Below, piece by piece: positions 18,523 through 62,047 of a stretch of DNA of 64,000 nt. Under the pieces are notes generated by a model. It saw only the letters and a list, made by a program, of their open reading frames with translations, ran no database searches and was not told the origin of the DNA. The DNA lies in assembly GCA_013298545.1 (NCBI GenBank), contig JAAFIA010000007.1, positions 19,590 through 83,589 of the forward strand, written 5' to 3'. The position numbers and the translations under genes were made by a program. Each line of letters starts with the position of its first letter. Position 1 is the first letter of the stretch. This DNA is from Bacteroidota bacterium. Its GTDB lineage: Bacteria > Bacteroidota > Bacteroidia > Palsa-965.

Positions 18523-18582
18523 GCACGTTTGTTTTGAGCCTCGCTTCGCCTTTGCCAAGTGTCATTGGCATGGGTCGGACGA

Positions 18583-19665: not shown

Positions 19666-19717
19666 AAACAATTGTTTAAAAATACAGATTTTGATCCGAA
19701 CGACCAAAAACGGTTTT

Positions 19718-45720: not shown

Positions 45721-47103
45721 ATGAATTGGCATTCGTTATTTTCTGAAGCACGCATTGGAGATCGGGAGCCGCGTCGTCGGCAGTCGCCAGACCGTACAAG
45801 TTTTGAGCGCGATTTTGATCGTGTGGTATTTTCATCGGCGTTTCGTCGGCTTCAAGATAAAACGCAGGTTATTCCACTTCCTGAAAGCGATTTTGTACAC
45901 ACGCGTTTAACACACAGTTTAGAAGTTTCTTGCGTAGGTCGATCACTCGGAAAGTTGGCTGGACAAACATTAATTGAACGGCATCGTTTAACCGATTTGC
46001 ATCCATCCGATTTTGGTGCGGTGGTAGCGGCAGCAGCATTGGCGCATGATATTGGCAATCCGCCATTTGGCCATTCGGGCGAAGCATCCATCAGCAATTA
46101 TTTTGCAAACGGAAAAGGCGAAAAATTTCGCGCGCAAATCAATGACGAAAATTTGTGGGCCGATTTGACGCAGTTTGAAGGCAACGCAAATGGATTTAAA
46201 TTATTGACTAATTACAACGATGCGTCTGGCGGAAGCATCAACCTCACCTACTCTACACTTGCTGCATTTACAAAATACCCAACGCGTTCGAATAAACTGC
46301 AAGAACACGAAGCGTTGATGAAAGGGCGTGTAAGTCAGAAAAAATATGGTTACTTCCAATCGGAGAAAGAAATTTTTGAATCTATTTTCCAGCATTTGGA
46401 AGTTGAACAATTGACGGATTATGCTTGGCGCAGGCACCCACTCGCATATATTGTAGAAGCGGCAGATGATATTTGTTATCGGATCATTGATTTTGAAGAT
46501 GGCATTCGAATCGGATTGATTCCTTTCAAACAGGGAGTTGAATTGTTGCAGGCCGTTTGTGGTGATGGGTTTAATGTAGATCGTTTTCAGCAAATAGGCG
46601 ATGCGCACGAGCAAATTGGGTACCTCCGCGCACGGGCCATCAACCGCTTGATTGGCGAATCGAATGCGTTGTTTTTGGATCTCGACGAACAAATTCTTTC
46701 GGGCAAATTCGACAAATCATTGGTTGATGAATTTAAACCGGAATTGAAAAATCCGTTGGAAGATATTCTCACCCTTTCGCGCGAGCAAGTCTATCGTAGT
46801 AAAAATGTGTTGCAGATTGAAGCTGCCGGATTTACGGTTGTAGCAGAATTGTTAGATGCGTTTATTACAGCGGTGAATGATTACCGCACTTGTGGCAGCG
46901 ATTTAAAAACATTGCGCAAAAAACATCCGTATAGCGAAAAAGTATTGAGTTTGTTGCCGAAACAATTTTTACATGCGTCTGGAGAAAGTGGTTACGATTT
47001 GTACCTGCGTATTTTGCGCGTGTGCGAATACGTTGCAGGCATGACAGATAGTTATGCGGTTACGTTATATCGTCGGCTGAAGGGAATTGAATTGCCCGGA
47101 TAA
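45721..47103 (+). CDS. dgt: dGTP triphosphohydrolase (HD-domain dGTPase, Dgt-like)
   Basis: HD motifs HSLEV...LAHDIGNPPFGHSGE. 460 aa. Confidence 0.85.
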   Translation: MNWHSLFSEARIGDREPRRRQSPDRTSFERDFDRVVFSSAFRRLQDKTQVIPLPESDFVHTRLTHSLEVSCVGRSLGKLAGQTLIERHRLTDLHPSDFGAVVAAAALAHDIGNPPFGHSGEASISNYFANGKGEKFRAQINDENLWADLTQFEGNANGFKLLTNYNDASGGSINLTYSTLAAFTKYPTRSNKLQEHEALMKGRVSQKKYGYFQSEKEIFESIFQHLEVEQLTDYAWRRHPLAYIVEAADDICYRIIDFEDGIRIGLIPFKQGVELLQAVCGDGFNVDRFQQIGDAHEQIGYLRARAINRLIGESNALFLDLDEQILSGKFDKSLVDEFKPELKNPLEDILTLSREQVYRSKNVLQIEAAGFTVVAELLDAFITAVNDYRTCGSDLKTLRKKHPYSEKVLSLLPKQFLHASGESGYDLYLRILRVCEYVAGMTDSYAVTLYRRLKGIELPG

Positions 47104-49275: not shown

Positions 49276-50565
49276 ATGAAAAAAATAACCCTAACATGGT
49301 GTGTAAGCATACTCTTTTCATTGTTACACATCACCCTTGCGGCTCAATGTCCTCAAGTTGTTGCAACCAGTTCTAGTAATTGTTTTATAGACAGTGTTCA
49401 ACTGAATGCTAGTGCGGGATTTACAAGCTACACTTGGCAACCCGCGGCCAATGTCTCCAATCCAAACAACGCCAGCCCCTATGCGTATGCGACAGGGACT
49501 TATACCGTTACGGCAACTGCTGGTCCCGGACCAAACATGGTTACAAACCCAGATTTCAGCATGGGCAATGTTGGGTTTACAAGTGGCATGAACAACTCCA
49601 TTGTTTATACACCCTGCAATTACTATGTAAGTCCCGATTGGTTTGGTGGTGTTTATCCGCAACTCACAGACCATACGCCAACAAATGACAACATGTACAT
49701 GGCCATTGATGGATGTAATGCTCCTACCATGATTTGGCAAGAAAGTAATTTTGCACTGCAACAAAATACTGATTATACGTTTTCGTTTTGGGCATCGCAA
49801 TCTGATGTGGTGCAACCTATTTTTGAAATTCATTTTGTAGGCGATGTTACTGGCGACAATATTATTGTAACACAACCGGGCATTCCTTATATCGGTGTTT
49901 GGACCTGGGATCAGTATGGTGTGCCACTTTGGAATTCAGGTGCAAATTCTACCCTTACAATTTATATCGTCAACTTGGCAGTTCAGGCTTATGGTAATGA
50001 TGTTGGCCTCGATGATTTTTCACTCAACATGCTGTGTCCGCCCACAACAGATACCGTTCTCGTAACGTCCTCCTTTCAATTTGACTTAGGTTCTTCTTTT
50101 TCATTTTGCGACAACCCAATTCCGGTTCTTGACGCGGGTATTTCAAATGCCACTTACTTGTGGAATACGGGAGAAACAACACAAACAATTTCGCCTGATA
50201 CACCCGGCGATTATTGGGTAGCCGTTTCAGCACCAGGCTGCAATACTGTAACAGATACCATTTCTATTGAAGGATCACCTGGCGATGGGTTGCTGTATTT
50301 CCCAAATGCATTTACCCCAAACCGCGATGGATTAAATGAACGATTTGCGCCAGTTGGCAATTTAGTTGAAACCTATCAACTTCGGATCTTTAACCGTTGG
50401 GGCGAATTGATTTTTGAAAGCAATGATATTGCCTTGGGTTGGGATGGTACTTACAAAGGAAATACAGTCCCGGATGGCGTTTATGTGTATGTGATCGAAT
50501 ACCAATCCAGTTGCGCATTTTCAGCCGTAAAGCAAAAAATTGGGCACGTCAGCGTACTACGATAA
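49276..50565 (+). CDS. T9SS type-B C-terminal sorting domain protein (gliding-motility-associated CTD, CHU_C type)
   Basis: Signal peptide. The C-terminus YFPNAFTPNRDGLNERF...GVYVYVIEYQ is the hallmark of the type-B CTD. Confidence 0.7.
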   Translation: MKKITLTWCVSILFSLLHITLAAQCPQVVATSSSNCFIDSVQLNASAGFTSYTWQPAANVSNPNNASPYAYATGTYTVTATAGPGPNMVTNPDFSMGNVGFTSGMNNSIVYTPCNYYVSPDWFGGVYPQLTDHTPTNDNMYMAIDGCNAPTMIWQESNFALQQNTDYTFSFWASQSDVVQPIFEIHFVGDVTGDNIIVTQPGIPYIGVWTWDQYGVPLWNSGANSTLTIYIVNLAVQAYGNDVGLDDFSLNMLCPPTTDTVLVTSSFQFDLGSSFSFCDNPIPVLDAGISNATYLWNTGETTQTISPDTPGDYWVAVSAPGCNTVTDTISIEGSPGDGLLYFPNAFTPNRDGLNERFAPVGNLVETYQLRIFNRWGELIFESNDIALGWDGTYKGNTVPDGVYVYVIEYQSSCAFSAVKQKIGHVSVLR

Positions 50566-50567
50566 CT

Positions 50568-52337
50568 AAAAAAATCCCGTCTCGAGCTAAGAGGTTGCTG
50601 AAAAAGTCCTGCCATTTTTCAGGCAATTAAAAAAAACCGGTTAAGGAAATGCTCTTTTCCTTAACCGGTTTTAATTTTTTAGTTCCCTGAAGCCATGTCG
50701 CAAAATAGCCATATAGCCTTTTTATCCTCGATATTTCTTCTTTAGGATGCCTTATGCGGTGAGTTTTATAATTCTTTTAAGGTTTACGGTGAAAATTGCC
50801 ATCGCCCCTTGCATTTGCATGTTGCTCATACCGTATGCTGTTGCTCTATCATACCCGTGTACATTTTTCAATTCACTATTCTTGGCCTCGATTTTATAGC
50901 GATGCTTTGCTTTTTCTTTAAAATAATCTGTTTCTTGAAAAGCAATTTGTTCTTGATGTAGTTCTGATTTTATACGAACAGAATATGTTTTAGCTTTTGC
51001 CCCTTCTTTGTAACAACCGTTTTTTAGAGGGCAGGTTTTACATTTTTCAATATCAAAATAGTATGTATTGACTTGATTCTTCCCAAAGTTTTTCTTGCCT
51101 TGTCGAGCCTTTCTAATTGCTAGGTGTCCCGCAGGGCAAACAAACATATCCGCATCTTTATTGTAATCAAATTTATCTTCTTCTTTCCTAAAGCCTTGTG
51201 TGATCGAAGGGTTTAGTTTAGCGACCATTTTAATCTCTTGTTTGTTTGTTAGTTTAAGATTCTCCTTTCCTGAGTATGCCGCATCGCCAATAACCGTGTC
51301 AACATTAATTCCATTTTCTTGACTAATTGCTAGTAATTTAGGCAGCTCTGGACCATCTCCTTTTTCTGCTGATGTTATAACTGCGGCTGTTATGATACGT
51401 TCCTCGGTCATGGCGAGGTGGGTTTTATAGCCAAAAAATGAATGTTCTGCTGATTTATAGCCGGTCTTTGCGTCGGTATCTTTTGATAGCGTTAGGTTTT
51501 CTTGAGCGTCTTCGATAGTTTCTTTTAGCAAGTTTAGCTTTTCCTTTACCCCTGGGATGGCGCAAATCGATTCATCTTTGGAGATACACTTTTCCAACTC
51601 TTGGCAGTACGATAGTTCTTGCGCTAGATCATTGGCCGTATTCTTTTCAGGCATTCGCTCTTTCCATTGCTCGTCGAAGGTGTAAATGGTTTTTCGAAGT
51701 TGTTTAGAGCGTTCGCGTAATACATCCATGGCCGAAAATGGATTGGATTTCGATAAGGTATGTGTCGCGTCAACAATAATAGATTTGGATCGGATAACCC
51801 CTTTTTCTATAGCGATAGATACTGTTTTACTAATCAATAGATTCATTAAGTCGGTGTCCTTCAAACGAAGCTTTCTGAATTTTGTAAGAGAACTCGGATT
51901 AATTACTTCTTCTTCGGGACTCATTTCTAAAAAGTACTTAAACGACATGTCAAAACGGGAACGCTCAACAACGTCAATATCGGATAGTGTATAGATTGTC
52001 TTTAATAACAAGTACTTGAACATGCGAATCGGGCTCTGGGCTAGCCTTCCATTGTTTGGGCAGTATTTGGTTGCCAACTCTTCATGCACAAATGAAAAAT
52101 CGATTAAATCATTAATCTTTCTCAGTAAATTATCTTGTGGAACAATAAGCGAATACAAAGAACTGTATTCGCTGAAGCCTATTTTTTCTTGTATGGGTAG
52201 CATCTATATGAGATTTATACGCTCATACAAGGTCAAAAAAAGGGGGAAACTTTTTTTAAAAGTTTCCCCCTTTTTTTTAACATGGTGTTCTTAATGGACT
52301 TTTTCAGCAACCTCCGAGCTAAGACGGGATTTTTTTG
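50568..52337 (-). mobile_element. IS1182/IS5-superfamily insertion sequence of about 1.77 kb, with roughly 40-bp imperfect terminal inverted repeats
   Basis: The left end aaaaaaatcccgtctcgagctaagaggttgctgaaaaagtcc matches the reverse complement of the right end ggactttttcagcaacctccgagctaagacgggattttttt. It contains a single transposase gene and is AT-rich. Confidence 0.7.
50752..52203 (-). CDS. IS1182/IS5-family DDE transposase
   Basis: 483 aa. The N-terminal transposase domain ...RMFKYLLLKTIY...SSLTKFR is DUF772-like, followed by a C-terminal DDE region. Confidence 0.8.
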   Translation of the reverse strand: MLPIQEKIGFSEYSSLYSLIVPQDNLLRKINDLIDFSFVHEELATKYCPNNGRLAQSPIRMFKYLLLKTIYTLSDIDVVERSRFDMSFKYFLEMSPEEEVINPSSLTKFRKLRLKDTDLMNLLISKTVSIAIEKGVIRSKSIIVDATHTLSKSNPFSAMDVLRERSKQLRKTIYTFDEQWKERMPEKNTANDLAQELSYCQELEKCISKDESICAIPGVKEKLNLLKETIEDAQENLTLSKDTDAKTGYKSAEHSFFGYKTHLAMTEERIITAAVITSAEKGDGPELPKLLAISQENGINVDTVIGDAAYSGKENLKLTNKQEIKMVAKLNPSITQGFRKEEDKFDYNKDADMFVCPAGHLAIRKARQGKKNFGKNQVNTYYFDIEKCKTCPLKNGCYKEGAKAKTYSVRIKSELHQEQIAFQETDYFKEKAKHRYKIEAKNSELKNVHGYDRATAYGMSNMQMQGAMAIFTVNLKRIIKLTA

Positions 52338-52356: not shown

Positions 52357-53331
52357 TTACATTCCCAAAATCCAAGCGAAAATCAACGGCGCAACAATTG
52401 TTGCATCGGATTCTACAATGTATTTTGGTGTATTGATATCGAGTTTGCCCCACGTGATTTTTTCGTTGGGAACAGCACCTGAATAAGAACCGTAAGAAGT
52501 TGTAGAATCTGAAATCTGGCAGAAGTACGACCAAAACGGAACATCGTGCCATTCCAAATCTTGGTACATCATGGGTACAACACAAATTGGGAAATCGCCA
52601 GCAATACCGCCACCAATTTGAAAGAAACCAACACCTTTACCAGCAGAATTATTTCTGTACCATTCGCTCAACCAAACCATGTATTCGATTCCGCTTTTCA
52701 TGGTGGTTGCTTTCACTTCATTTTTGATGACATAAGAAGCGAAGATATTGCCCATAGTTGAATCTTCCCAACCGGGAACAATGATGGGCAGATTTTTCTC
52801 TGCCGCAGCCACCATCCACGAATTTTTCGGGTCGATTTCGTAGTATTGTTCAAGCACACCACTTTTAATCATTTGATACATGAACTCGTGTGGAAAATAA
52901 CGTTCGCCGTTGGTATCGGCATTTTTCCACAATTCGTAAACATGTTTTTGCAAACGACGGAAGGCTTCTTCCTCAGGAATACACGTATCGGTTACGCGGT
53001 TGAGACCTTGTTCGAGCAAATCCCATTCCTCTTGCGGTGTCAGGTCGCGGTAATTGGGAATGCGGCGGTAATGCGAATGCGCCACTAAGTTCATCAAATC
53101 CTCTTCGAGGTTTGCGCCCGTACACGAAATGATCGCGATTTTATCTTGGCGAATCATTTCAGCTAACGAAACACCAAGCTCGGCTGTACTCATGGCTCCG
53201 GCGAGGCTCACCAACATTTTTCCCCCTTCGAGCAAATGTGTTTCGTATCCTTTGGCTGCATCTTTCAACGCAGCAGCATTGAAATGGCGGTAGTGATGCT
53301 CAATAAATTGAGAAATTGGTCCTTTATTCAT
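52357..53331 (-). CDS. Deoxyhypusine synthase-family protein (homospermidine-synthase-like)
   Basis: Starts MNKGPISQFIEHHY. DHS fold with an NAD-binding region. Confidence 0.75.
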   Translation of the reverse strand: MNKGPISQFIEHHYRHFNAAALKDAAKGYETHLLEGGKMLVSLAGAMSTAELGVSLAEMIRQDKIAIISCTGANLEEDLMNLVAHSHYRRIPNYRDLTPQEEWDLLEQGLNRVTDTCIPEEEAFRRLQKHVYELWKNADTNGERYFPHEFMYQMIKSGVLEQYYEIDPKNSWMVAAAEKNLPIIVPGWEDSTMGNIFASYVIKNEVKATTMKSGIEYMVWLSEWYRNNSAGKGVGFFQIGGGIAGDFPICVVPMMYQDLEWHDVPFWSYFCQISDSTTSYGSYSGAVPNEKITWGKLDINTPKYIVESDATIVAPLIFAWILGM

Positions 53332-53636
53332 GGTTGAAAATTGTTTTCGGTGTATGTATTGGAGGTGCAAAAGTAGATTTTTTTAACAGTCTGTAAATAC
53401 CCAAACTAATTTACTAAACGGCTAAATCTTGCAATCAATCCTGTAAGGCCTTCAAACTATCCTTTAAAACCGACAATTCGTCGGTATGAACCCTATATTA
53501 TGGTTGGATTAATGTTAGTAAAATCCCTTGCCCGAAGGGCCAAAAAGTCTAACTTTGCCCCTGAAACCAAATAAATACCCCACACACGGGTAAAAGACAA
53601 CGTTAATTTTCCATCACAACAACAATACACACCGTC

Positions 53637-54551
53637 ATGAAAAAAGTCTTACTTGGACTTAGTCTCGTTGCACTTGCAACAACTGCAAATGCGCAAATCT
53701 GTAGCGAATTGTTCTTCTCTGAATATGTTGAAGGATCAGGAAACAACAAAGCTATTGAAATCTACAACCCTACTAGCGCAGCCATCAACCTGTCAAACTA
53801 CCGTGTTGTTCGTTATTCTAACGGATCGGCTGTTGGAACAGATAGCGTAAATCTTTCTGGTACATTAGCATCTAACGATGTTCATGTTCTTGTAAATGGA
53901 CAAACCACTACCGCTCAAAACTCTCCGGCTTGCGATCCTGCATTACAAGCCATTGGCGACCAATTGGCGGGTGCTTATCCCGATCCTATGTATATGAACG
54001 GCGATGATGCCGTATTGCTTGTTAAAATTTCGCCTTACACCATCATCGATATTTTTGGGAAAATTGGTGAAGATCCAGGCCAAAGCTGGAGCGATGTATT
54101 CCCACACACGGATGCACAAGGCTCTTGGTGGACCAAAGACCACAGCATGGTTCGTAAAGCAACGGTTACCTCTGGCGTTATGGTTAATCCGCTTGCGTTT
54201 GATCCAACATTACAATACGATTCTTTGCCACAAGATACATGGACAAGCCTCGGTGCACACACCTGCGCTTGCGCGTCAATTGGTATCAATGAAAACAATG
54301 CTGCTACAAACAAAGTAAACTTATTTCCAAATCCAACTTCTGGTTTGATGAACGTAAGTGCTAACGATAAAATCGTTTCTATGGTTGTTTACAACGCCAT
54401 CGGACAAGCTGTAATGAGCAAGACCTACACGGCTGATGAACAACGTAAGCAACAAAGTATCGACCTCAGCACTGCTCCTGCCGGAATCTATATGGTTGAA
54501 GTAAAATTGGCTGATGGCCGTCAACTTGTTTCTAAAGTCAACGTCAACTAA
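53637..54551 (+). CDS. Lamin-tail-domain (LTD) protein with a T9SS type-A CTD
   Basis: The N-terminus after the signal, CSELFFSEYVEGSGNNKAIEIYNPT, is an LTD. The C-terminus NLFPNPTSGLMNV...VEVKLADGRQLVSKVNVN is a type-A CTD. Confidence 0.7.
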   Translation: MKKVLLGLSLVALATTANAQICSELFFSEYVEGSGNNKAIEIYNPTSAAINLSNYRVVRYSNGSAVGTDSVNLSGTLASNDVHVLVNGQTTTAQNSPACDPALQAIGDQLAGAYPDPMYMNGDDAVLLVKISPYTIIDIFGKIGEDPGQSWSDVFPHTDAQGSWWTKDHSMVRKATVTSGVMVNPLAFDPTLQYDSLPQDTWTSLGAHTCACASIGINENNAATNKVNLFPNPTSGLMNVSANDKIVSMVVYNAIGQAVMSKTYTADEQRKQQSIDLSTAPAGIYMVEVKLADGRQLVSKVNVN

Positions 54552-54576
54552 TCCTGACAGCATAATCTATTGAATC

Positions 54577-54610
54577 GAAAAATGCTGATGGTTTCTCCAT
54601 CAGCATTTTT
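54577..54610 (+). terminator. Rho-independent terminator after the LTD gene
   Basis: aaaaatgctgatgg tttctc catcagcattttt, a perfect stem. Confidence 0.7.
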
Positions 54611-54625
54611 CGCGAAAAGACATCC

Positions 54626-57496
54626 ATGAAACACGTCCTCTTTCTTTACTTTTCGCTGCTTTCGTTGGCAGGTTTTGCGCAACAACCCGTATCGGGAACT
54701 GTCCGCGACATCACCACAAACGAACCATTAGTCGGCGCTGTCGTTCTTGTCGATAATGGCAAAGCGGTGGCCAACACCAATGTTGACGGCTTCTATAAAA
54801 TCATGCTGGCCGATGGCGAACATACACTCGAAGTAAAATATACAGGCTATAAAAGTGAGCCTATAAAAGTTAAAGTTGTAGGAAAACCTGTTACCGTAAA
54901 TTTTACGCCGAGCAGCAGTACACTCAAAGAAGTTGAAATCAGCGCAGATCTGGCCATTGACCGGAAAACACCGATTGCTTTTTCGAATGTAAGTCAAGTA
55001 AAAATTCAGGAAGAAGGCGCTGGCCGCGACATGACCATGCTCCTCAATTCTACACCCGGCGCGTATGCTACACAGCAAGGCGGCGGGCAAGGCGATTCGC
55101 GTGTGAACCTGCGCGGATTTGATCAACGCAATATTGCTGTGATGGTGGATGGTGTTCCGGTAAATGACATGGAAAATGGACAAGTTTATTGGAGCAACTG
55201 GGACGGACTGAGTGAAGTAACACGCACCATGCAAGTTCAACGCGGCCTTGGTGCTTCGCGGCTGGCGATTCCTTCTGTTGGTGGTACCATCAACATCTTG
55301 AGCAAGGGCATTGACGAGAAACAACAGTTTATTTTGAAAAAAGAGTATGGTAGTTTTGCGCAACAAAAATTAGTACTCGGTTTTAATTCGGGTGAGTTTG
55401 GAAAAGGTTGGGGCGTTACATTTGCTGGATCGCGCACTACGGGCGATGGTTGGGCCAATCAGACTTGGGTAGATGCATGGAGTTACTTTTTTAAAGTTCA
55501 AAAACGGTACGAAAAGCATTTGTTTACGCTTGGCGCAAATGGTGCACCTCAAGCACATGGCCAACGGAGTGATCGCATGCCCATCGCTATTTATGATCGT
55601 GCTTATGCGAACAGTTTAGGGATAAATTCCGATTCGTTGTATGCTACCAATAATGGTTACACAACACTTTACCAAGGCGAGCGTGGCTTACGATACAATC
55701 CGCATGCGGGTTTGCTCGATAAAGGGGATGGACAAATTCGCGATTTCAATGAGCGTACAAATTATTACCACAAACCGCAATTCAATTTTTCTTGGTTCTG
55801 GACTCCAACAGAAAAATTAACAATCAATACCATTGTGTATCTTTCGATTGGCAAGGGTGGCGGAGCACGTTTGAATAGCGGTATTGCACGCGATACAACA
55901 AGTGGTTTATTGCAATACACCAGCATCTGGAATAGTAACGCAACGGCAATAGATGCGCTTTACAGTACAAGCGAAACCAAATCGAGCCGTTACATCAACG
56001 CTTCTGTCAACAACCATTTTTGGTATGGTGGTCTGGCCACTGCTAATTGGAAAGTTTCGGAAAAAGTAAATGTTTTGTTTGGTGCCGATCATCGCTTTTA
56101 CAGAGGCGAACATTACCGCATGGTGTATGATTTGATTGGTGGTGATTATGTGGTTGACAACAGCGACCGCAATCAACCCAATGGTGTAGGAAATTTGCAG
56201 TACGCGATGAAACGCAAAGGCGATAAAATTTCTTATTACAACGATGGTTTGGTTTGGTGGGATGGTTTCTTTGCGCAAGGTGAATACAAGGGCGAAAAAT
56301 TCAGCACATTTTTAACTGCAACCGGTTCGATCACCTCGTATCAGCGTGTCGATTATTTCCGTAAGCGTGATGTAACACTTGCCGATGGCGAAAAAGTAGA
56401 TCAGATTGTGGGCTACAATGAAGTGTATTATACCAATGGTACACAGAGTGCGGTGGCGCAAAACAATGCCGTCATCACAACTTCTGGCGATACGACCTAC
56501 ATCAACAACCCTAGCGGTGCTGATTATGCGATTGCGAATGCAACCGCTTATAAATGGGCTGATGCAAAAACTTCTACTACCAATAAAAAAACATTGCCAG
56601 GCTTAACCATCAAAACAGGTGCAAATTATAATTTCAACGATCATTACAATGTCTTTGTAAATGTTGGTTATATGAATATGGCGCCACGTTTCAACAATGT
56701 TTTTGACAACAACAACAAAGAGTTTTTGGACATCCAAAATCAAAATGTGTATGCTGCCGAAATTGGTGCGGGGGCGCGTTTCCCTTATTTCGCAGCAAAT
56801 CTGAATTTGTATTACACCTACTGGGCCAATAAGCCGCCGCAGTTTACACCAACCATCAATGTTGCAGGTGATATTTTTTCTTACAACATCAATGGCATGG
56901 ATGCGATTCACCGTGGCGTAGAAATGGATTTTACGTGGAAGCCAATGAAAGGCTTAGATGTAGAAGGACTTGTAGCCATTGCCGACTGGCGCAACAACAG
57001 CGCAAAAAAAGCATATATCTATGATGCGCAAGAAGTGCTTGTTGACTCGGTTGAGTTTGATGCCAAAGGCGTACACGTTGGTGATGCTGCGCAAACACAA
57101 ATTGGTGGATCGCTCCGCTGGTCGCCCGTAAAAGGTTTTTGGATGAAAGCACGTTATACTTACTTCGGTCGCAATTTCGCGAATTACGATCCATTGACCT
57201 TGGTTGTAACATACAACAGCAATGGCGATGTACTCAGCGATAACCGTCAAAAAGAATCGTGGATTACGCCATCTTACGGTATTTTCGACTTCTTTACGGG
57301 CTATGAATTTCGTGGTATGGGCGAAGAAAATGCAGCACGTCAACTTCGTGTTGGATTAACACTTGGTATTACCAACATCTTAAATACGACTTACATCAGC
57401 GATGCACAAAATGGCGCAAATTTCGATGCTTCTTCAGCACTCGTTTATGTTGGCCTGGGTCGCCGTTTCAATGCGGGCATCCGTTTCACATTTTAA
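54626..57496 (+). CDS. TonB-dependent outer-membrane receptor (carboxypeptidase-regulatory-like N-domain, plug, β-barrel)
   Basis: The N-terminus VSGTVRDITTNEPLVGAVVLVDNG is a CarbopepD_reg domain. 956 aa. The C-terminal residue is F. Confidence 0.85.
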   Translation: MKHVLFLYFSLLSLAGFAQQPVSGTVRDITTNEPLVGAVVLVDNGKAVANTNVDGFYKIMLADGEHTLEVKYTGYKSEPIKVKVVGKPVTVNFTPSSSTLKEVEISADLAIDRKTPIAFSNVSQVKIQEEGAGRDMTMLLNSTPGAYATQQGGGQGDSRVNLRGFDQRNIAVMVDGVPVNDMENGQVYWSNWDGLSEVTRTMQVQRGLGASRLAIPSVGGTINILSKGIDEKQQFILKKEYGSFAQQKLVLGFNSGEFGKGWGVTFAGSRTTGDGWANQTWVDAWSYFFKVQKRYEKHLFTLGANGAPQAHGQRSDRMPIAIYDRAYANSLGINSDSLYATNNGYTTLYQGERGLRYNPHAGLLDKGDGQIRDFNERTNYYHKPQFNFSWFWTPTEKLTINTIVYLSIGKGGGARLNSGIARDTTSGLLQYTSIWNSNATAIDALYSTSETKSSRYINASVNNHFWYGGLATANWKVSEKVNVLFGADHRFYRGEHYRMVYDLIGGDYVVDNSDRNQPNGVGNLQYAMKRKGDKISYYNDGLVWWDGFFAQGEYKGEKFSTFLTATGSITSYQRVDYFRKRDVTLADGEKVDQIVGYNEVYYTNGTQSAVAQNNAVITTSGDTTYINNPSGADYAIANATAYKWADAKTSTTNKKTLPGLTIKTGANYNFNDHYNVFVNVGYMNMAPRFNNVFDNNNKEFLDIQNQNVYAAEIGAGARFPYFAANLNLYYTYWANKPPQFTPTINVAGDIFSYNINGMDAIHRGVEMDFTWKPMKGLDVEGLVAIADWRNNSAKKAYIYDAQEVLVDSVEFDAKGVHVGDAAQTQIGGSLRWSPVKGFWMKARYTYFGRNFANYDPLTLVVTYNSNGDVLSDNRQKESWITPSYGIFDFFTGYEFRGMGEENAARQLRVGLTLGITNILNTTYISDAQNGANFDASSALVYVGLGRRFNAGIRFTF

Positions 57497-57546
57497 CACA
57501 CACAATCCGTACACCTATTATTTCAACACGAACACAAACAGACCTC

Positions 57547-59745
57547 ATGAAAAAAATCATGCTCGCGCTCAGTCTTTGCTTAACCGCATTTGCAGGAAGC
57601 GCACAAATCACAACGCTGCCTACGGCTTGGAGTTTTACGGTAGCTACTTATCCGAATGGCTGGACGACAAGCGGAACAGCATTCTACACCGGATCGGGCA
57701 ATACACCACCGGCATGTAAATTTGATAATACGGGCGACTGGTTATTGATTTCGTTTTCGGATGCGCCTGGAGCCTTGACGTATTACATCACCGGAAATAG
57801 TTTTGTTGGTGGAACATTTGAAGTACAAGAATCGACGAACAATTCAACTTGGACAACGTTGCGTTCTTTCAACGACCAGAATTTGCCAACAGCATACACC
57901 TTGCTAACAGATAATCCTTCTGCGGCTTCGCGTTACATCCGTTTTTTCTACACCCAGAAAAGTGCAGGTAATGTTGGTTTGGATGATGTGAATTTGGCTG
58001 CTGCTCCTGCTGGCCCACAACAAGAAATTAATATTCAATACCAGAGCAATACCATTCTCTCTGGCGGTTCATTGAGTGTTAATTCTCCTGTTAGCACAAC
58101 AACACCATTTGCGGTTACGGTCAACAATGTTGGAACATTAGACACCTTGCAGATTTCGTCTATTGCCATTACAGGACCTGATGCGGCAGATTTTGCTTGG
58201 GTAAATTATCCTTCTTCTGTTAATCCAAATGCGTTTGGTATTATCAATATTGATTTTACGCCTAGCGTTGCTGGAACACGCTCTGCTGTATTAACGGTTT
58301 ACAGCAATGATGCTGATGAATCGGCGTATGTTATCAACCTCAACGGCATTGGTGGTTCGTATGCGAGTGAGCCAACTGCGACTGCTACCAACATGACTTT
58401 CACAAACATCAAATCGTACCGTGCTACTGGAAACTTTGTGGCTGCTAATCCTGCACCAGATGGTTATCTTATATTGCGCAACGACAATGGTGTGGTAGCA
58501 GATATTCCGGCTGATGGTACAACGTACACGATTGGCGATGTTGTTGGGAGTTCAAAAGTTGCTTATGTTGGAACAGGAAGTGCATTTACAATTAACTATG
58601 TGGGGGCATCACAAGATTATTATTTCGCTGTTTTTTCGTTCAATGGACAAGCGCAATACACCAACTATTTGCAAACACAACCGCTGAATGGCATGGTCAT
58701 GGCTTCTGGTTCGATGCAACCAGCCAACTACTACAACGCAATCAATACAAGTGCGGCAACATTTGTAACAGATCTTACCGCACTTACCAATCCACACACC
58801 GATAAATTCTACAGCAATTACGGACCATTGATGGTAACCGCATTTTGGTCGCGCGATACAACGGGTGGACAAAAAGTAGTAACCTGCGTTTATTCTGGTG
58901 AAAATTTGATTTACAACGAGCCATTCCAATGGATCTCGTTTAGCCGTGAACACACGTATGCCCATAGTTGGATGCCAACTTACCCAAGCACAAATGGCCC
59001 TGAGTACAGCGACTATTTCAACTTATTCCCAACCAATCAAAACAATGCAAATGCGGTGCGCAGCAACTATCCACTCGGCGAAGTGATCAATGTGCAATCA
59101 ACTTATTTGGGTTGTAAATTCGGAACAAATGCTGCCGGACAACAAGTATTTGAGCCGCGCGACGAACAAAAAGGTGATGCCGCTCGTGCTATGTTCTACA
59201 TGGCTTTGTGTTACAATACACAAGCACAAAACTGGGGCTTGCCCAATCCAATTAGCGCAAGCATTTTGTATGGTCAAGATCAAAATTTATTGAAAGCATG
59301 GCATTACCAAGATTTGCCTGATGCGCGCGAAATTGCGAAAAACGACTACCTCGATTCGTTGCAAGGAAATCGCAATCCGTTCATCGACTCTGTAAACTAT
59401 GCTTGTTATATTGATTTTGACAACATGACCAAAATCAATGGCCCAATTTTACCTTGCTCTACCGTTGGCATCAACGACAACATAGGCGTTCAAGCCGAAA
59501 TGGGTTTATGGCCAAATCCTACATCTGGTCAGTTTACACTTTTCTGGAAAACAGAACAGGCTGAAGAAATTTCGGTTCAAGTGATCGACGTTACAGGACG
59601 TATTGTTTATACACAAACATCTGCCGTTGGTTTGGGTGGAAACGCACTCATGCTCGATTTGAGCAAACTTGCTGTTGGTTCATACACACTTCAAGTTGTG
59701 CGTAGCAATGGAACATCAACTAGTGAGAAATTGATGATTCAATAA
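57547..59745 (+). CDS. Secreted extracellular nuclease with an endonuclease I domain and a T9SS type-A CTD
   Basis: Endonuclease I motifs FSREHTYAHSW and GNRNPFID. The C-terminus GLWPNPTSGQFTLF... is a CTD. There is a signal peptide. Confidence 0.8.
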   Translation: MKKIMLALSLCLTAFAGSAQITTLPTAWSFTVATYPNGWTTSGTAFYTGSGNTPPACKFDNTGDWLLISFSDAPGALTYYITGNSFVGGTFEVQESTNNSTWTTLRSFNDQNLPTAYTLLTDNPSAASRYIRFFYTQKSAGNVGLDDVNLAAAPAGPQQEINIQYQSNTILSGGSLSVNSPVSTTTPFAVTVNNVGTLDTLQISSIAITGPDAADFAWVNYPSSVNPNAFGIINIDFTPSVAGTRSAVLTVYSNDADESAYVINLNGIGGSYASEPTATATNMTFTNIKSYRATGNFVAANPAPDGYLILRNDNGVVADIPADGTTYTIGDVVGSSKVAYVGTGSAFTINYVGASQDYYFAVFSFNGQAQYTNYLQTQPLNGMVMASGSMQPANYYNAINTSAATFVTDLTALTNPHTDKFYSNYGPLMVTAFWSRDTTGGQKVVTCVYSGENLIYNEPFQWISFSREHTYAHSWMPTYPSTNGPEYSDYFNLFPTNQNNANAVRSNYPLGEVINVQSTYLGCKFGTNAAGQQVFEPRDEQKGDAARAMFYMALCYNTQAQNWGLPNPISASILYGQDQNLLKAWHYQDLPDAREIAKNDYLDSLQGNRNPFIDSVNYACYIDFDNMTKINGPILPCSTVGINDNIGVQAEMGLWPNPTSGQFTLFWKTEQAEEISVQVIDVTGRIVYTQTSAVGLGGNALMLDLSKLAVGSYTLQVVRSNGTSTSEKLMIQ

Positions 59746-59765
59746 TTTGTAACACACTTTTTTTG

Positions 59766-59797
59766 AAGACCGCCTGCGCATGTAGGCGGTCTTTTTT
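59766..59797 (+). terminator. Rho-independent terminator after the nuclease gene
   Basis: aagaccgcctgcgcatgtaggcggtctttttt. Confidence 0.75.
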
Positions 59798-60033
59798 ATT
59801 TTTTTCCATCAGCATAAAAGGAAATTGAAACGACTTTCAATTTCCTTTTATCAAACTATTGATGATATTGAGCTAGAGACGGTTTTACCAACTATTTTTT
59901 GGCGTTAAGACCATTTTTTAAAAAATCGGATTTCAACAAAACACACTGAATCTTTGATCTGTTCTGAAATTTGTGATCACACCAACGTTTCAACATCATT
60001 GTACATTACGAAAACGCACAACTGGCTACAAAC

Positions 60034-60082: not shown

Positions 60083-62047
60083 TTATTTACGAATGGTAAT
60101 CTTTTCGCTTAATTGTTCTGTATCGCTTGTTATGCGAAGTGTATAAATTCCTGCGGGAAGATTTGTTGCTTGAATTTCTTTCGTATAACCGGCAGGTGTT
60201 TGTTCCGCATAGCTAGTATAAACCAAACGTCCGGCAATATCGTAAAGTTCAATTTGCAACGTATTTGTTTTCGACGCTACCGAAATGGTAAAGTTGCCAT
60301 TGTTCGGATTCGGGAAAAACGAGAATCCATTTTGTGAGGCATTGCTTTGTACACCCAAACAAATATCTACTTGAATGTTGACCATAGCGGTGTCTGAGCA
60401 ACCGTTACTATCCGTGAATGAATAAGTCAGTGCATGCATCCCATTTCCGGCTGCTGCTGCATCAAACGAAGTGCCAGTAACTCCTGGACCAGACCATGTA
60501 CCTCCAACAGGACTTCCCGTGAGCGGGGTAAGACCATCACTCAAACAAACCAGATTAGAAGCGGCTGCGGCACTTGCGACAGGAAGCGAATGAATGGTAA
60601 CAGCGATGCTGTCATTTGCTTGACAACCATTTGAATCGGTAACGACCACCGAATACATGCCTGAAGTCGAAACCGTCAACGTTTGGTTTGTTGTTGCATC
60701 ACTCCAGTTAAATAATGAACCAGCATTACCAGCATCGAGCAAAATCGTGCCGCCACACTGCGTTGTATCCGATCCGAGTGTAACTGTCGGCACAGGCAAT
60801 ACATCAATGGTAATTGTTCCAGTATTGGAACACCCGTTTACATCTGTTCCTGTTACGGTATATGTAGTTTGTGTTGACGGACTGACACTCACGGTGCTTC
60901 CAGAGAGATTACCGGGCATCCAAGAATATGTAGATGCTCCGTTTGCATTGATCGAAGTAGAACTACCGATGCAAACTTGATTGAATCCTGAGAGTGAAAC
61001 TATTGGTAAAGCCGTAAGCGTAACTGCCAAATTTGTGGGTGCACTTGTTCCGCAAGGATGATTGGCCACAACACTGACATTGCCACTTGTAGATCCATGT
61101 GTAACGTTGATGGATGTCGTGGTTTGTCCCGAATTGATTGTTCCTCCAGCCGGAAGTGTCCACGTGTAAGAAGTAGCACCCGCAACAGGATTGATCGAAT
61201 AGTTTGTGGTAGTACCAGCACATAAAGTTGTAATTCCAGAAATACTGGAAGGTGCAACTGCGGTTAATGTGTAGGTGATGCTGATGCTTCCCGCACCAGT
61301 ATTGAATCCCTGTGTATGCGTAACGCCAGTAACCGACGGTGCCGAATAACTGCTTCCGCCACCGCCACCAGCAAAGCAAGAGCCACCGCCGCCATAATAG
61401 CCACCGCCGCCGCCACCGCCGCCCGCGCCATCGCCCGAACCATTCCCGCCCTGCCCGAGCGTACCCGCAGTTGTATATGTAGGACAAGAACAACAGGCCA
61501 CACCTGCCGCACCACCTGCAAGTTGCGATCCGCCTTTACCACCCGAATTTGGCCACGAAGGATAAAAAACACCGTCCTGACCCGTTAGTCCGCCGCCATG
61601 CCCACCAATATTGATGTAACCGCCACCACCGCCGCCACCCGCAACAACGAGCCGATCGGCATTGGCGTAGGGAGCACGACGAATATCTGTTGCACCCCCT
61701 CCCGTTCCCGACGTTCCACCAGAAACATAAGAGAAAACACCACCACCACCATTGTAAACCGGAGGATTGCTAACCGATGTATTGACACCCAAAGCCCCAA
61801 CACGAATCTCAAGAATTTCGCCAGGTGTTACCGGAATTGTTGCTTGAACGCGGCCACCATTTCCACCCAAATAAATTCCGTTATTGCCTCCTTTGCCACC
61901 CAGTACATCAACCTGAATACTGGTTACACAAGCAGGAACGGTAAAGGTTTGAACACCTCCAGTATAATTGAATGTGTTTGATTGAGCTTGTAGCAGGGTG
62001 TTCGATACAAGAAACAAAAGACCTAGCAAGCGTAGTTGTCTTTTCAT
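60083..62047 (-). CDS. Glycine-rich secreted protein with Ig-like/SprB-type repeats and a T9SS type-A CTD
   Basis: Signal peptide. It has long poly-Gly tracts (GGGGGGGGYYGGGGS) and a C-terminal CTD ending ...LRITSDTEQLSEKITIRK. Confidence 0.6.
   Translation of the reverse strand: MKRQLRLLGLLFLVSNTLLQAQSNTFNYTGGVQTFTVPACVTSIQVDVLGGKGGNNGIYLGGNGGRVQATIPVTPGEILEIRVGALGVNTSVSNPPVYNGGGGVFSYVSGGTSGTGGGATDIRRAPYANADRLVVAGGGGGGGYINIGGHGGGLTGQDGVFYPSWPNSGGKGGSQLAGGAAGVACCSCPTYTTAGTLGQGGNGSGDGAGGGGGGGGYYGGGGSCFAGGGGGSSYSAPSVTGVTHTQGFNTGAGSISITYTLTAVAPSSISGITTLCAGTTTNYSINPVAGATSYTWTLPAGGTINSGQTTTSINVTHGSTSGNVSVVANHPCGTSAPTNLAVTLTALPIVSLSGFNQVCIGSSTSINANGASTYSWMPGNLSGSTVSVSPSTQTTYTVTGTDVNGCSNTGTITIDVLPVPTVTLGSDTTQCGGTILLDAGNAGSLFNWSDATTNQTLTVSTSGMYSVVVTDSNGCQANDSIAVTIHSLPVASAAAASNLVCLSDGLTPLTGSPVGGTWSGPGVTGTSFDAAAAGNGMHALTYSFTDSNGCSDTAMVNIQVDICLGVQSNASQNGFSFFPNPNNGNFTISVASKTNTLQIELYDIAGRLVYTSYAEQTPAGYTKEIQATNLPAGIYTLRITSDTEQLSEKITIRK

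What the first reader, a model, noticed from the sequence alone, without database searches (positions are those of the whole stretch)
53637..59745. A three-gene plus-strand block looks like an extracellular-DNA utilisation locus: LTD protein, TonB-dependent receptor and endonuclease I, both outer genes T9SS cargo
A lamin-tail-domain CTD protein, a 956-aa TonB-dependent transporter and an endonuclease-I-family nuclease with a CTD sit co-oriented, with terminators after genes 1 and 3. LTDs are frequently fused to or encoded next to secreted nucleases and phosphatases. A TonB-dependent transporter sandwiched between them suggests the degradation products (oligo- or mononucleotides) are taken up across the outer membrane. 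This would be a PUL-like system for nucleic acid rather than polysaccharide.
Basis: inference. Interest (0 to 1): 0.55.

Follow-up and report, generated by a model that had tools for sequence, protein, structure and literature searches.

The report
T9SS-linked extracellular DNA uptake cassette

Summary
The genes are g1 (53637-54551, LTD plus T9SS type-A CTD), g2 (54626-57496, TonB-dependent transporter) and g3 (57547-59745, multidomain endonuclease I plus T9SS CTD). A strong hairpin follows g1 and a canonical terminator follows g3.

I examined 80 loci from other species that encode relatives of g2.
- The LTD gene sits directly upstream in 72 of 72 informative loci.
- A T9SS-secreted nuclease gene is adjacent in 62 of 62 informative loci.
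- That nuclease is either the g3 type or an unrelated DUF5689-FN3-PLD nuclease. This is a non-homologous swap at one position.
- Fourteen loci add 5'-nucleotidase genes and two add an S1/P1 nuclease gene.
- Flanking genes differ between lineages.

The transporter matches no siderophore, vitamin or SusC model.

TBDT-plus-nuclease DNA loci are already known: ddbABCDEF in B. thetaiotaomicron (PNAS 2025) and the Riemerella transformation genes. This is therefore a new variant, not a new kind. Its distinguishing features are T9SS cargo, an invariant LTD partner and no SusD or standalone DUF5689 gene.

What the LTD protein does, what is imported, and whether the purpose is nutrition or transformation are all inferred.

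About half of the related loci, but not this window, carry an unclassified structured RNA leader with covariation.

The parts
53550..53557 (+). Candidate Bacteroidota -7 promoter box (TAACTTTG, consensus TAnnTTTG), about 80 nt upstream of g1
   Evidence: Read directly from the sequence. The related loci have TAcATTTG at the equivalent place. This is inference only, because the sigma-70 scan does not cover this promoter type.
53637..54551 (+). g1: secreted lamin-tail-domain protein, 304 aa. It has a signal peptide (aa 1-19, mature N-terminus Gln), an LTD module of about 195 aa (nt 53694-54281) and a T9SS type-A CTD (aa 229-301, nt 54321-54539).
   Evidence: Pfam and NCBIfam hits above cut-off. 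The N-terminal 200 aa align to the LTD end of the extracellular nuclease ExeM (NF033680, E 7e-24). The AF2 model shows two beta-sandwiches, and the CTD matches solved T9SS CTDs. A homologue lies directly upstream of the TBDT in 72 of 72 informative loci.
54576..54612 (+). Intergenic 16-bp hairpin between g1 and g2, a terminator or attenuator-like element or an mRNA 3'-end stabiliser
   Evidence: dG -24.7 kcal/mol, z -5.2, with 0 of 200 shuffles as stable. A comparably stable hairpin occupies the LTD-TBDT spacer in 45 of 69 related loci (z < -2).
54626..57496 (+). g2: TonB-dependent outer-membrane transporter, 956 aa. It has a signal peptide, a carboxypeptidase-D-regulatory-like N-terminal extension (aa 22-103), a candidate TonB box (about aa 100-108), a plug (aa 113-220) and a beta-barrel (about aa 230-956).
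   Evidence: Pfam. More than 7,500 homologues were found, all Bacteroidota-labelled where named. Invariant residues are listed. No SusC, siderophore or vitamin family model reaches its cut-off.
57547..59745 (+). g3: T9SS-secreted multidomain nuclease, 732 aa. Its domains are a signal peptide, an F5/8-type-C-like jelly roll (about aa 20-150), a choice-of-anchor-D Ig-like domain (aa 179-258), an FN3-like domain (about aa 270-395), an endonuclease I catalytic domain (aa 463-615, nt 58933-59391) and a T9SS CTD (aa 654-731, nt 59506-59739).
   Evidence: Domain calls are. The catalytic R467-E468-H469 and the N502/R505 motif are invariant in 33 homologues, and N502 onward aligns to Vvn nuclease 1OUP. 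The gene is directly downstream of the TBDT in 49 related loci.
59765..59804 (+). Intrinsic terminator that closes the cassette
   Evidence: A 13-bp stem with 7 GC pairs followed by a U-run. dG -25.4 kcal/mol, z -4.0.

Best explanation
This is a self-contained cassette for capturing, degrading and importing extracellular nucleic acid.

Proposed steps:
1. g1 and g3 cross the inner membrane by Sec. The type IX secretion system then exports them through their type-A C-terminal domains, and they are either released or tethered to the cell surface by the PorU-type sortase.
2. g3 uses its three N-terminal beta-sandwich domains to hold polymer or surface. Its beta-beta-alpha-metal endonuclease I domain cuts DNA or RNA into short 5'-phosphorylated oligonucleotides, which are too large for porins.
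3. g1, the one invariant companion of the transporter, acts at the mouth of g2 as the extracellular capture or lid subunit. This is the role played by SusD in polysaccharide loci and proposed for DUF5689/DdbD in gut DNA loci.
4. g2 moves the fragments into the periplasm using TonB energy.
5. Periplasmic nucleotidases and phosphatases finish the job, yielding phosphate and nucleosides. They are encoded inside the operon in some lineages and elsewhere in this genome.

What is shown: gene content, domain identity, intact catalytic residues, export signals and the strict, cross-lineage gene linkage.

What is inferred: physical g1-g2 pairing, oligonucleotides as cargo, and nutrition (probably phosphorus or nucleotide salvage) as the purpose.
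For: - Domains and signals are confirmed.
- Catalytic residues of endonuclease I are invariant.
- LTD-TBDT adjacency holds in 72 of 72 informative loci, and nuclease adjacency in 62 of 62. TBDT identity in these loci falls as low as 42%, and at least six different flanking contexts occur. Independent gene calls and precomputed Pfam annotation show the same order.
- The nuclease position holds either endonuclease I or a non-homologous DUF5689-FN3-2xPLD nuclease with both HKD motifs intact. Both types carry T9SS CTDs, and one locus has both.
- Split 5'-nucleotidase genes follow the nuclease in 14 loci, and S1/P1 nuclease genes do so in 2.
- DUF5689 is the proposed DNA-binding partner of the DNA transporter DdbC and of the Riemerella transformation TBDT (PMC12478041, PMC8459023).
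- Flavobacterium johnsoniae LTD-FN3-endonuclease I proteins are induced 17- to 25-fold by phosphate depletion and appear in the exoproteome (PMC8115612).
- A Riemerella T9SS endonuclease I has DNase and RNase activity (PMC12398890).
- PorU2/PorV2 are encoded in the window.
Against: - There is no experimental datum for any member of this cassette.
- The LTD module is strongly acidic (median pI 4.3, net charge about -11), which argues against simple electrostatic DNA binding.
- Its closest multi-repeat relatives are adhesin-like surface proteins without nuclease domains.
- The literature states that the role of bacterial LTDs is unknown, and that ExeM keeps most of its activity without its LTD (PMC6085458).
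- The hairpin between g1 and g2 may make g1 a separate transcript.
- The window's own operon has no nucleotidase, phosphatase or inner-membrane transporter gene.
- In B. thetaiotaomicron, DNA was a poor sole C, N or P source even with a functional ddb locus, so 'nutrition' may be too simple.
- I could not test whether g2 is specifically related to DdbC or RA0C_RS04915.
Confidence: 0.62

Rival explanations
1. The cassette is a DNA-uptake machine for natural transformation. The LTD protein binds double-stranded DNA, the TBDT passes it across the outer membrane as proposed for Riemerella anatipestifer RA0C_RS04915/04920, and the nuclease trims or linearises incoming DNA for ComEC.
For: A TBDT plus a DUF5689 surface protein are essential for transformation in R. 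anatipestifer, and they sit next to a nuclease gene (PMC8459023; PMC12478041). Sister loci of this cassette carry DUF5689 immediately after the TBDT.
Against: - Every locus has a non-specific secreted nuclease, which would destroy transforming DNA outside the cell.
- 5'-nucleotidase and S1/P1 genes in the operon of 16 loci point to complete breakdown.
- No competence genes (comEC, dprA, comF) were seen among the flanking genes of 80 loci.
- The window protein set has no DUF5689.
Confidence: 0.15
2. The cassette is a general organophosphate or phosphodiester scavenging unit. The nuclease or PLD enzyme attacks any phosphodiester, and the TBDT imports a small phosphorylated product or phosphate complex and not oligonucleotides. 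The LTD protein would be a scaffold that holds the enzymes at the surface.
For: PLD-family enzymes and endonuclease I relatives belong to the phosphate-starvation exoproteome of Flavobacterium, together with several TBDTs of unknown substrate (PMC8115612). LTDs were proposed to direct hydrolases to membranes. The LTD module is common in adhesin-like proteins.
Against: Both alternative enzymes belong to nuclease-type families, and one carries the putative DNA-binding DUF5689 domain. The accessory enzymes are nucleotidases and S1/P1 nucleases, not phytases or phosphatases of other kinds. Mononucleotides and phosphate do not need a 956-aa TBDT with a dedicated partner.
Confidence: 0.12
3. The cassette remodels extracellular DNA and does not acquire it. 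The nuclease and LTD protein would modify biofilm matrix or escape DNA traps, and the transporter would be linked for an unrelated or signalling reason.
For: The homologous-in-concept B. thetaiotaomicron nuclease BT3563 controls bile-dependent biofilm formation (PMC8851478). ExeM affects Shewanella biofilms. Riemerella EndoI contributes to virulence.
Against: This does not explain why a TBDT is invariably sandwiched between the two secreted proteins in free-living freshwater, soil and marine lineages. It also does not explain the nucleotidase genes that follow.
Confidence: 0.08

Closest known systems
ddbABCDEF DNA-utilisation locus of Bacteroides thetaiotaomicron (Sharan et al., PNAS 2025, PMC12478041); BT3560-3563 in strain VPI-5482
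   Same: It is a Bacteroidota locus that joins secreted nucleases to a TonB-dependent transporter and an extracellular non-catalytic partner. It has PUL-like logic applied to DNA. Sister loci of the window cassette contain the same DUF5689 domain right after the transporter.
   Different: - Ddb proteins are lipoproteins or SPI proteins, with no T9SS in gut Bacteroides. Here both secreted proteins are T9SS type-A cargo.
- The Ddb partner is a standalone DUF5689 protein downstream. Here the invariant partner is an LTD protein upstream, and the window has no DUF5689 at all.
- The nuclease families differ or are unknown.
- Ddb has six genes and this cassette has three.
- Specific homology of g2 to DdbC was not testable here.
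Riemerella anatipestifer natural-transformation genes RA0C_RS04915 (TBDT) and RA0C_RS04920 (choice-of-anchor J/DUF5689/DUF5017), with neighbouring nuclease RA0C_RS04910 (PMC8459023)
   Same: It is a Flavobacteriales TBDT whose barrel escapes the standard models, and it is annotated 'carboxypeptidase-like regulatory domain protein', as are some members of the g2 family. It is linked to an extracellular beta-sandwich protein and a nuclease.
   Different: Its demonstrated role is transformation, not catabolism. The gene order is nuclease-TBDT-partner. There is no LTD gene. A homologue search started from a Weeksellaceae-labelled member of the g2 family returned no Riemerella protein.
SusC/SusD polysaccharide-utilisation loci, and the Flavobacterium johnsoniae chitin locus with T9SS-secreted ChiA
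   Same: The division of labour is the same: a secreted or surface depolymerase, a surface binding protein and a TonB-dependent importer of oligomers. The T9SS supplies the enzyme in environmental Bacteroidota.
   Different: There is no SusC (TIGR04056) signature in g2, no SusD gene, no glycoside hydrolase and no hybrid two-component or ECF/anti-sigma regulator next to the cassette.
Extracellular nucleases ExeM/Xds and EndA of Shewanella and Vibrio; Vvn/EndA endonuclease I structures (1OUP)
   Same: The first 200 residues of g1 align to the LTD end of ExeM. The catalytic domain of g3 is endonuclease I with the Vvn-type E-H and N metal and catalytic residues. In Shewanella, EndA is needed to use DNA as a phosphorus source.
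   Different: In Proteobacteria the LTD is fused to the nuclease and no dedicated outer-membrane importer is linked. Here the LTD is a separate protein married to a TBDT. Secretion is by T2SS or rhombosortase there and by T9SS here.
Flavobacterium johnsoniae EndA1/EndA2 (Fjoh_4721, Fjoh_4723; FN3+LTD+endonuclease I)
   Same: They are Bacteroidota secreted endonuclease I proteins combined with LTD and FN3 modules. They are phosphate-starvation induced and found in the exoproteome (PMC8115612).
   Different: LTD and nuclease are in one polypeptide. They were reported as 'orphan' genes with no linked transporter described.

Membership tests
Endonuclease I (Pfam PF04231; Vvn/EndA type beta-beta-alpha-metal nucleases) | Sequence match to the family model above the curated cut-off | tested here: met
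   106.7 bits against a cut-off of 25, aa 463-615. All 33 homologues scanned also match.
Endonuclease I (Pfam PF04231; Vvn/EndA type beta-beta-alpha-metal nucleases) | Catalytic Glu-His pair and metal-binding Asn retained | tested here: met
   R467-E468-H469 and N502/R505 are invariant in 33 sequences. N502-R505 aligns to the NGDRSN segment of Vvn. Equating E468/H469 with Vvn E79/H80 rests on the Pfam alignment and on my knowledge of Vvn.
Endonuclease I (Pfam PF04231; Vvn/EndA type beta-beta-alpha-metal nucleases) | Mg2+-dependent non-specific DNase/RNase activity | not testable with these tools
   This needs recombinant protein.
T9SS type-A cargo | C-terminal sorting domain matching TIGR04183/PF18962 above cut-off | tested here: met
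   g1 scores 38.7 bits and g3 39.8 bits against a cut-off of 23. The modelled g1 CTD superposes on solved T9SS CTDs 8GL6_D and 8GL8_D.
T9SS type-A cargo | Host encodes a T9SS | tested here: met
   PorU2-like sortase (702 bits, cut-off 450) and PorV2 (496 bits, cut-off 325) lie at 13525-19755. Other CTD proteins flank the locus. The core translocon genes were not seen in the 64 kb.
T9SS type-A cargo | Actual export and CTD cleavage | not testable with these tools
   This needs proteomics.
TonB-dependent transporter | Plug domain and 22-strand barrel | tested here: met
   Plug PF07715 scores 49.5 bits against a cut-off of 23.9. The AF2 model has a barrel (mean pLDDT 64, strands 70-85) and matches PqqU, Fiu, FhuA and FecA at E 1e-19 to 1e-22. 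The plug itself is poorly modelled.
SusC/RagA subfamily and canonical PUL | TIGR04056 SusC signature and an adjacent SusD-family gene | tested here: not met
   There is no SusC/RagA model hit at E <= 0.01. Neither neighbour is SusD-like. The N-terminal carboxypeptidase-regulatory-like extension is shared with SusC proteins.
Siderophore, haem or cobalamin receptors | Match to a curated receptor family model | tested here: not met
   The only hits are plug-fragment hits at 40 and 20 bits, against cut-offs of 324 and 925. Source labels such as 'iron complex receptor' or 'cobalamin receptor' are generic automatic names.
ddb-type DNA-utilisation locus (PMC12478041) | DdbC-type transporter (the paper used >50% identity and >75% coverage to one of four DdbC queries) | not testable with these tools
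   The accessions are known (WP_008762511.1 and others), but no tool returns sequences by accession.
ddb-type DNA-utilisation locus (PMC12478041) | DUF5689 substrate-binding partner encoded next to the transporter | tested here: not met
   There is no DUF5689 hit in g1 or in any g3 segment at E <= 10. DUF5689 is present, fused to the PLD nuclease, in 13 sister loci.
ddb-type DNA-utilisation locus (PMC12478041) | Secreted nuclease(s) in the locus | tested here: met
   g3 is one. A nuclease is adjacent in 62 of 62 informative related loci.
Lamin tail domain proteins | PF00932 match above cut-off and an Ig-like beta-sandwich fold | tested here: met
   55.5 bits against a cut-off of 34.3. The AF2 model gives beta-sandwiches, and the lamin A/C Ig domain 7CRG is among the fold matches.

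The most novel reading that the evidence does not exclude
The free-standing LTD protein would be a previously unrecognised class of TonB-dependent-transporter surface subunit. It would be delivered by the T9SS instead of by lipidation, and it would give bacterial lamin tail domains their first defined job. The LTD-TBDT-nuclease cassette would then be the main route by which environmental (freshwater, soil, marine) Bacteroidota consume dissolved DNA or RNA. In about half of the lineages it would be switched by an undescribed riboswitch-like leader RNA that also controls a wider set of T9SS surface proteins.
Probability: 0.3. Interest if true: 0.8.

Novelty: new variant of a known kind. Interest (0 to 1): 0.6.

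Why it matters
Dissolved extracellular DNA is a large pool of phosphorus and nitrogen in water, soil and sediment. Which organisms take it up, and how fragments cross the outer membrane, is poorly known.

- **A marker for environmental DNA consumers.** Gut Bacteroides were only shown in 2025 to use a TBDT-centred locus for this. The cassette described here would extend that principle to uncultured environmental Bacteroidota. Thousands of homologues were found, many from lake and ocean metagenomes. It would give a compact three-gene marker for DNA-consuming populations in metagenomes and metatranscriptomes.
- **A testable role for bacterial lamin tail domains.** The literature still states that their function is unknown.
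- **A different way to build a transporter.** A T9SS-delivered transporter partner would show that TBDT surface complexes can be assembled without lipoproteins.
- **A possible sensor.** The associated leader RNA, if it binds a ligand, could reveal what signal tells these bacteria that nucleic acid is worth harvesting.

Tried and rejected
1. **Direct test of g2 against DdbC or RA0C_RS04915.** Accessions were found, but no tool fetches sequences by accession. The paper has no held supplements.
2. **Homologue search from the Weeksellaceae-labelled TBDT (L079), hoping to reach Riemerella.** It returned only a very abundant marine uncultured Flavobacteriales clade. This is informative about ecology but not about the question asked.
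3. **L074 as a natural LTD-TBDT fusion (a Rosetta stone).** Rejected. The CTD is truncated, the reading frame runs into an intact TBDT signal peptide, and a frameshift or assembly error is the likely cause.
4. **DUF5689, choice-of-anchor J or DUF5017 in g1 or the g3 N-terminus.** No hit at E <= 10. Sampling 33 homologues gave only F5/8-type-C, Ig-like (ASH/HYDIN/choice-of-anchor D) and FN3.
5. **Structure of g1 for a DNA-binding clue.** The model is acceptable (pLDDT 75), but fold matches are generic Ig-like sandwiches and T9SS CTDs.
6. **Structure of g2.** Confidence is low (pLDDT 64, plug unmodelled). It gives only generic TBDT matches and no substrate information.
7. **Guilt by fusion for the LTD module.** The closest relatives in 1.8 billion representatives are multi-repeat adhesin-like proteins (SLH, SprB, cadherin, CTD) without nuclease domains. 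This weakens the DNA-binding idea and does not support it.
8. **The leader RNA in the window itself.** Absent, with a best score of 4.9 bits with filters off. My by-eye candidate at 53480-53590 was rejected.
9. **Rfam identity for the leader.** There are no gathering-level hits in 8 loci and only chance hits in evalue mode. The weak HrrF match in the window (29.7 bits against a gathering score of 77) is simply the g1 terminator hairpin.
10. **Pho-box search.** Abandoned, because no Bacteroidota consensus was available in the paper consulted.
11. **The dCas12f-sigmaE guided-transcription paper.** Checked as a possible explanation for the conserved upstream element. No link could be established.


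Full report
**1. What is in the window**

Three long ORFs lie head to tail on the + strand.

g1 (53637-54551, 304 aa):
- It starts with a signal peptide whose predicted cleavage leaves an N-terminal glutamine.
- It contains a lamin tail domain (PF00932, 55.5 bits against a cut-off of 34.3).
- It ends in a type-A T9SS sorting domain (PF18962, TIGR04183).
- Its first 200 residues also align to the LTD end of the Shewanella extracellular nuclease ExeM (NF033680, E 7e-24).

g2 (54626-57496, 956 aa):
- It has a signal peptide, a carboxypeptidase-D-regulatory-like N-terminal extension and a TonB-dependent-receptor plug.
- No Pfam or NCBIfam barrel, SusC, siderophore or vitamin model reaches its cut-off.
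- An AF2 model, although of low confidence (pLDDT 64), has the barrel. It matches solved TonB-dependent transporters only generically, at 10-13% identity.

g3 (57547-59745, 732 aa):
- It is larger than 'endonuclease I with a CTD'.
- After the signal peptide come an F5/8-type-C-like jelly roll, a choice-of-anchor-D Ig-like domain and an FN3-like domain.
- These are followed by the endonuclease I domain (aa 463-615, 106.7 bits) and the T9SS CTD.
- The motif R467-E468-H469 and the N502/R505 segment are invariant in 33 homologues. The N502/R505 segment aligns to the metal-binding region of Vvn nuclease. The enzyme therefore looks active.

Terminators:
- A 16-bp perfect hairpin (54576-54612, dG -24.7, z -5.2) follows g1.
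- A canonical terminator (59765-59804) follows g3.
- Nothing separates g2 from g3.

The same window encodes PorU2- and PorV2-type T9SS proteins.

**2. Is the arrangement meaningful?**

A profile of g2 and 15 homologues was used to pull 80 loci from a one-genome-per-species collection. These loci have 42-66% TBDT identity. I scored them by tblastn and by clustering all ORFs.

- The LTD gene lies directly upstream, in the same orientation, in 71 of 72 loci that have upstream sequence. In the 72nd (L074) it is present but read through into the TBDT ORF, apparently by a frameshift.
- A g3-type nuclease gene follows the TBDT in 49 loci, counting L027, where an over-extended ORF start confused the script.
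- In 11 loci the gene at that position is different: DUF5689 + FN3 + two PLD-like domains + T9SS CTD, with both HKD motifs invariant.
- One locus has both nuclease types in series. One locus has the PLD gene upstream of the LTD gene.
- So all 62 loci with enough flank have a T9SS-secreted nuclease next to the LTD-TBDT pair, drawn from two unrelated enzyme families.
- In 14 loci (Fluviicola/Crocinitomicaceae type) the nuclease is followed by a split 5'-nucleotidase (5_nucleotid_C and Metallophos). In two loci it is followed by an S1/P1 nuclease.
- Flanking genes fall into several unrelated sets, for example deoxyhypusine-synthase-like, citrate synthase/DPP-IV and PdxJ/NAD kinase. The three genes are therefore the conserved unit.
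- Independent gene calls with precomputed Pfam on two multi-megabase contigs show the same order.
- The family is very large. There were more than 7,500 scoring homologues of g2, and a marine clade has hundreds of near-identical metagenomic copies.

**3. How it most likely works**

The non-homologous replacement of one secreted nuclease by another at a fixed position, together with nucleotidase and S1/P1 accessories, points to nucleic acid as the substrate. Gene order alone would be a weaker argument.

My reading of the mechanism is as follows.
1. T9SS export places g3 and g1 outside the outer membrane.
2. g3 cuts DNA or RNA into oligonucleotides. E. coli endonuclease I is known to give oligomers of roughly seven nucleotides (from my own knowledge).
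3. These oligomers are too large for porins, hence the need for a TonB-dependent transporter.
4. g1 is the transporter's extracellular partner.
5. Periplasmic nucleotidases complete the breakdown.

The first two steps rest on domain identity and signals, which are shown. The pairing of g1 with g2 rests on 72 of 72 adjacency, which is strong but indirect. The cargo and the physiological purpose are inferred.

A conserved hairpin in the LTD-TBDT spacer (45 of 69 loci) suggests that more g1 than g2 is made. This would fit a surface-coating binding protein.

**4. Evidence that cuts the other way**

- The LTD module is acidic (median pI 4.3, net charge -11).
- A full scan of 1.8 billion representative proteins shows the 195-residue module mostly as tandem repeats in giant adhesin-like proteins with SLH, SprB, cadherin or CTD anchors and no nuclease domain.
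- The ExeM study states that LTD function is unknown, and found that ExeM lacking its LTD kept most of its activity in vivo and had reduced activity in vitro.
- So g1 may be a scaffold or a transporter lid and not a DNA binder. If it binds nucleic acid, it would probably do so through metal ions or base stacking.
- In B. thetaiotaomicron, DNA was a poor sole nutrient despite a working locus. In Riemerella, the analogous TBDT serves transformation. The purpose is therefore open.

**5. Comparison with what is known**

The idea of a PUL-like system for DNA was published in 2025: ddbABCDEF, consisting of three nucleases, the TBDT DdbC, a DUF5689 partner DdbD and DdbE. It was linked there to the Riemerella transformation genes.

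The cassette here shares the logic. Through the PLD-type sister loci it also shares the DUF5689 domain placed immediately after the transporter.

It differs in four ways:
- Both secreted proteins are T9SS cargo, not lipoproteins.
- The invariant partner is an LTD protein encoded upstream.
- The window's own genes have no DUF5689.
- The nuclease is endonuclease I with three accessory domains.

It is not a canonical PUL, because there is no SusC signature and no SusD.

The PNAS paper does not mention LTD, endonuclease I or T9SS. In the searchable library only one unrelated paper contains both 'lamin tail domain' and 'TonB', and searches for DNA-utilisation systems in Flavobacteria found nothing closer.

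Supporting experimental hints come from relatives:
- F. johnsoniae LTD-FN3-endonuclease I proteins are phosphate-starvation induced and secreted.
- A Riemerella T9SS endonuclease I is an active DNase/RNase.

I therefore class this as a new variant of a known kind.

**6. An unexpected extra: a structured leader RNA in related loci**

Looking for promoter motifs upstream of the LTD gene, I found a conserved element in many loci. Its parts, in order, are:
- a 6-bp closing helix (GAAGYG ... CRCUUC);
- a conserved 5' junction, AACACCCUACAA;
- a hairpin of entirely variable sequence;
- a conserved 3' junction, (AUU)CCGAAAC.

Covariation supports the helices. 93.5% of cells are paired against 81% in shuffles (0 of 500 shuffles reach the observed value), and slid controls give 35-54%. 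The picture is the same for 42 sequences.

A covariance model finds 42 copies in 1.2 Mb, all in operon orientation.
- 35 of them end 19-170 nt before an LTD start codon, mostly 19-60 nt. They lie in 34 of the 70 informative loci plus the separately fetched L083.
- The other seven, some in tandem, precede other large T9SS proteins.

An exact-pattern scan of metagenome contigs found 33 more sites. Many lie upstream of the same families of large secreted proteins, several of which share the N-terminal jelly-roll domain of g3.

No Rfam 15 family matches.

The element is absent from the window itself and from the Crocinitomicaceae-type loci. It looks like a riboswitch or a protein-binding leader for a regulon of surface proteins. 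Its effector is unknown.

**7. Verdict**

- The concept is already in the literature for gut Bacteroides.
- This particular architecture appears not to have been described: the LTD partner, T9SS delivery, an interchangeable nuclease and, in relatives, a structured leader.
- Interest is moderate to fairly high. The cassette offers a tractable handle on environmental DNA turnover and on the function of bacterial lamin tail domains. Every functional step beyond domain identity still needs an experiment.

Noticed in passing
Related loci, e.g. L020:6925-6990, L038:2824-2893, L083:4314-4451 (tandem), L024:3071-3213 (tandem); not in the window: There is a conserved structured 5' leader with four parts: helix P1 (GAAGYG/CRCUUC), junction AACACCCUACAA, a variable hairpin and junction CCGAAAC. 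Covariation supports it. It lies upstream of the LTD gene in 34 of 70 informative loci and upstream of other large T9SS-CTD proteins, and 33 further sites were found in metagenome contigs. No Rfam 15 family matches. It may be a riboswitch or a protein-bound leader.
   Followed up: partly
L052:10856-13060, L073:10871-13036, L070:6659-8893 and ten other loci: In 13 related loci the gene next to the LTD-TBDT pair is a DUF5689 + FN3 + 2xPLD (both HKD motifs intact) + T9SS CTD protein. In most of them it replaces endonuclease I. L070 carries both types in series, and in L033 the PLD gene lies upstream of the LTD gene. This links the cassette to the DUF5689 proteins of ddb and Riemerella loci.
   Followed up: yes
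L030:12916-14545 and 13 other Fluviicola/Crocinitomicaceae-type loci; L052:13084-14070, L065:13156-14163: A 5'-nucleotidase split into two genes (a 5_nucleotid_C lipoprotein-like ORF and a Metallophos ORF) directly follows the nuclease. Two PLD-type loci carry an S1/P1 nuclease gene instead.
   Followed up: partly
L030 (CP034120.1), L001 (CALRTD020000223.1), L047 (CAZGJF010000004.1): Record titles name non-Bacteroidota organisms: Glaciecola amylolytica (a complete genome, Gammaproteobacteria by NCBI taxonomy), Synechococcus and Akkermansia. The loci nevertheless carry T9SS cargo and are syntenic with Crocinitomicaceae/Bacteroidia MAGs. Mislabelling or bin contamination is likely. If CP034120.1 is a cultured strain, it would be a candidate model organism.
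   Followed up: partly
window 50752-52203 (-): A complete IS1182-family transposase gene (368 bits, cut-off 270) lies two genes upstream of the cassette, beyond the deoxyhypusine-synthase-like gene. The window's upstream region lacks the leader RNA that its closer relatives (L003-L008) have.
   Followed up: no
window 13525-19755 (-): There is a 1677-aa PorU2-type putative T9SS sortase (peptidase C25) and an adjacent PorV2-type protein. These are paralogues of the canonical PorU/PorV pair.
   Followed up: partly
window 52357-53370 (-): A deoxyhypusine-synthase-like gene is divergently placed next to g1. The same neighbour occurs in 25 of the related loci, so this is lineage synteny with no obvious functional link.
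   Followed up: no
window 60083-62047 (-) and 49276-50565 (+): Two further T9SS cargo genes flank the region. One has an ALK/LTK glycine-rich domain, a PKD-like domain and a type-A CTD. The other has a type-B (CHU_C) CTD and no other recognisable domain.
   Followed up: no
window 45721-47103 (+): A dGTP triphosphohydrolase gene (NF002205, 451.6 bits against a cut-off of 439) lies about 6.5 kb upstream. The same protein scores below cut-off against the anti-phage dGTPase models.
   Followed up: no
Proteins P0361-P0381: The whole 195-residue module of g1 (LTD plus its C-terminal extension) recurs as 2-6 tandem copies in giant surface proteins of up to 3,764 aa. These have SLH, SprB, cadherin or T9SS anchors and no catalytic domain.
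   Followed up: partly
L074:1967-5923: An apparent 1318-aa LTD-TBDT fusion ORF. The CTD is truncated and the TBDT signal peptide is intact, so a frameshift or assembly error is more likely than a real fusion.
   Followed up: yes
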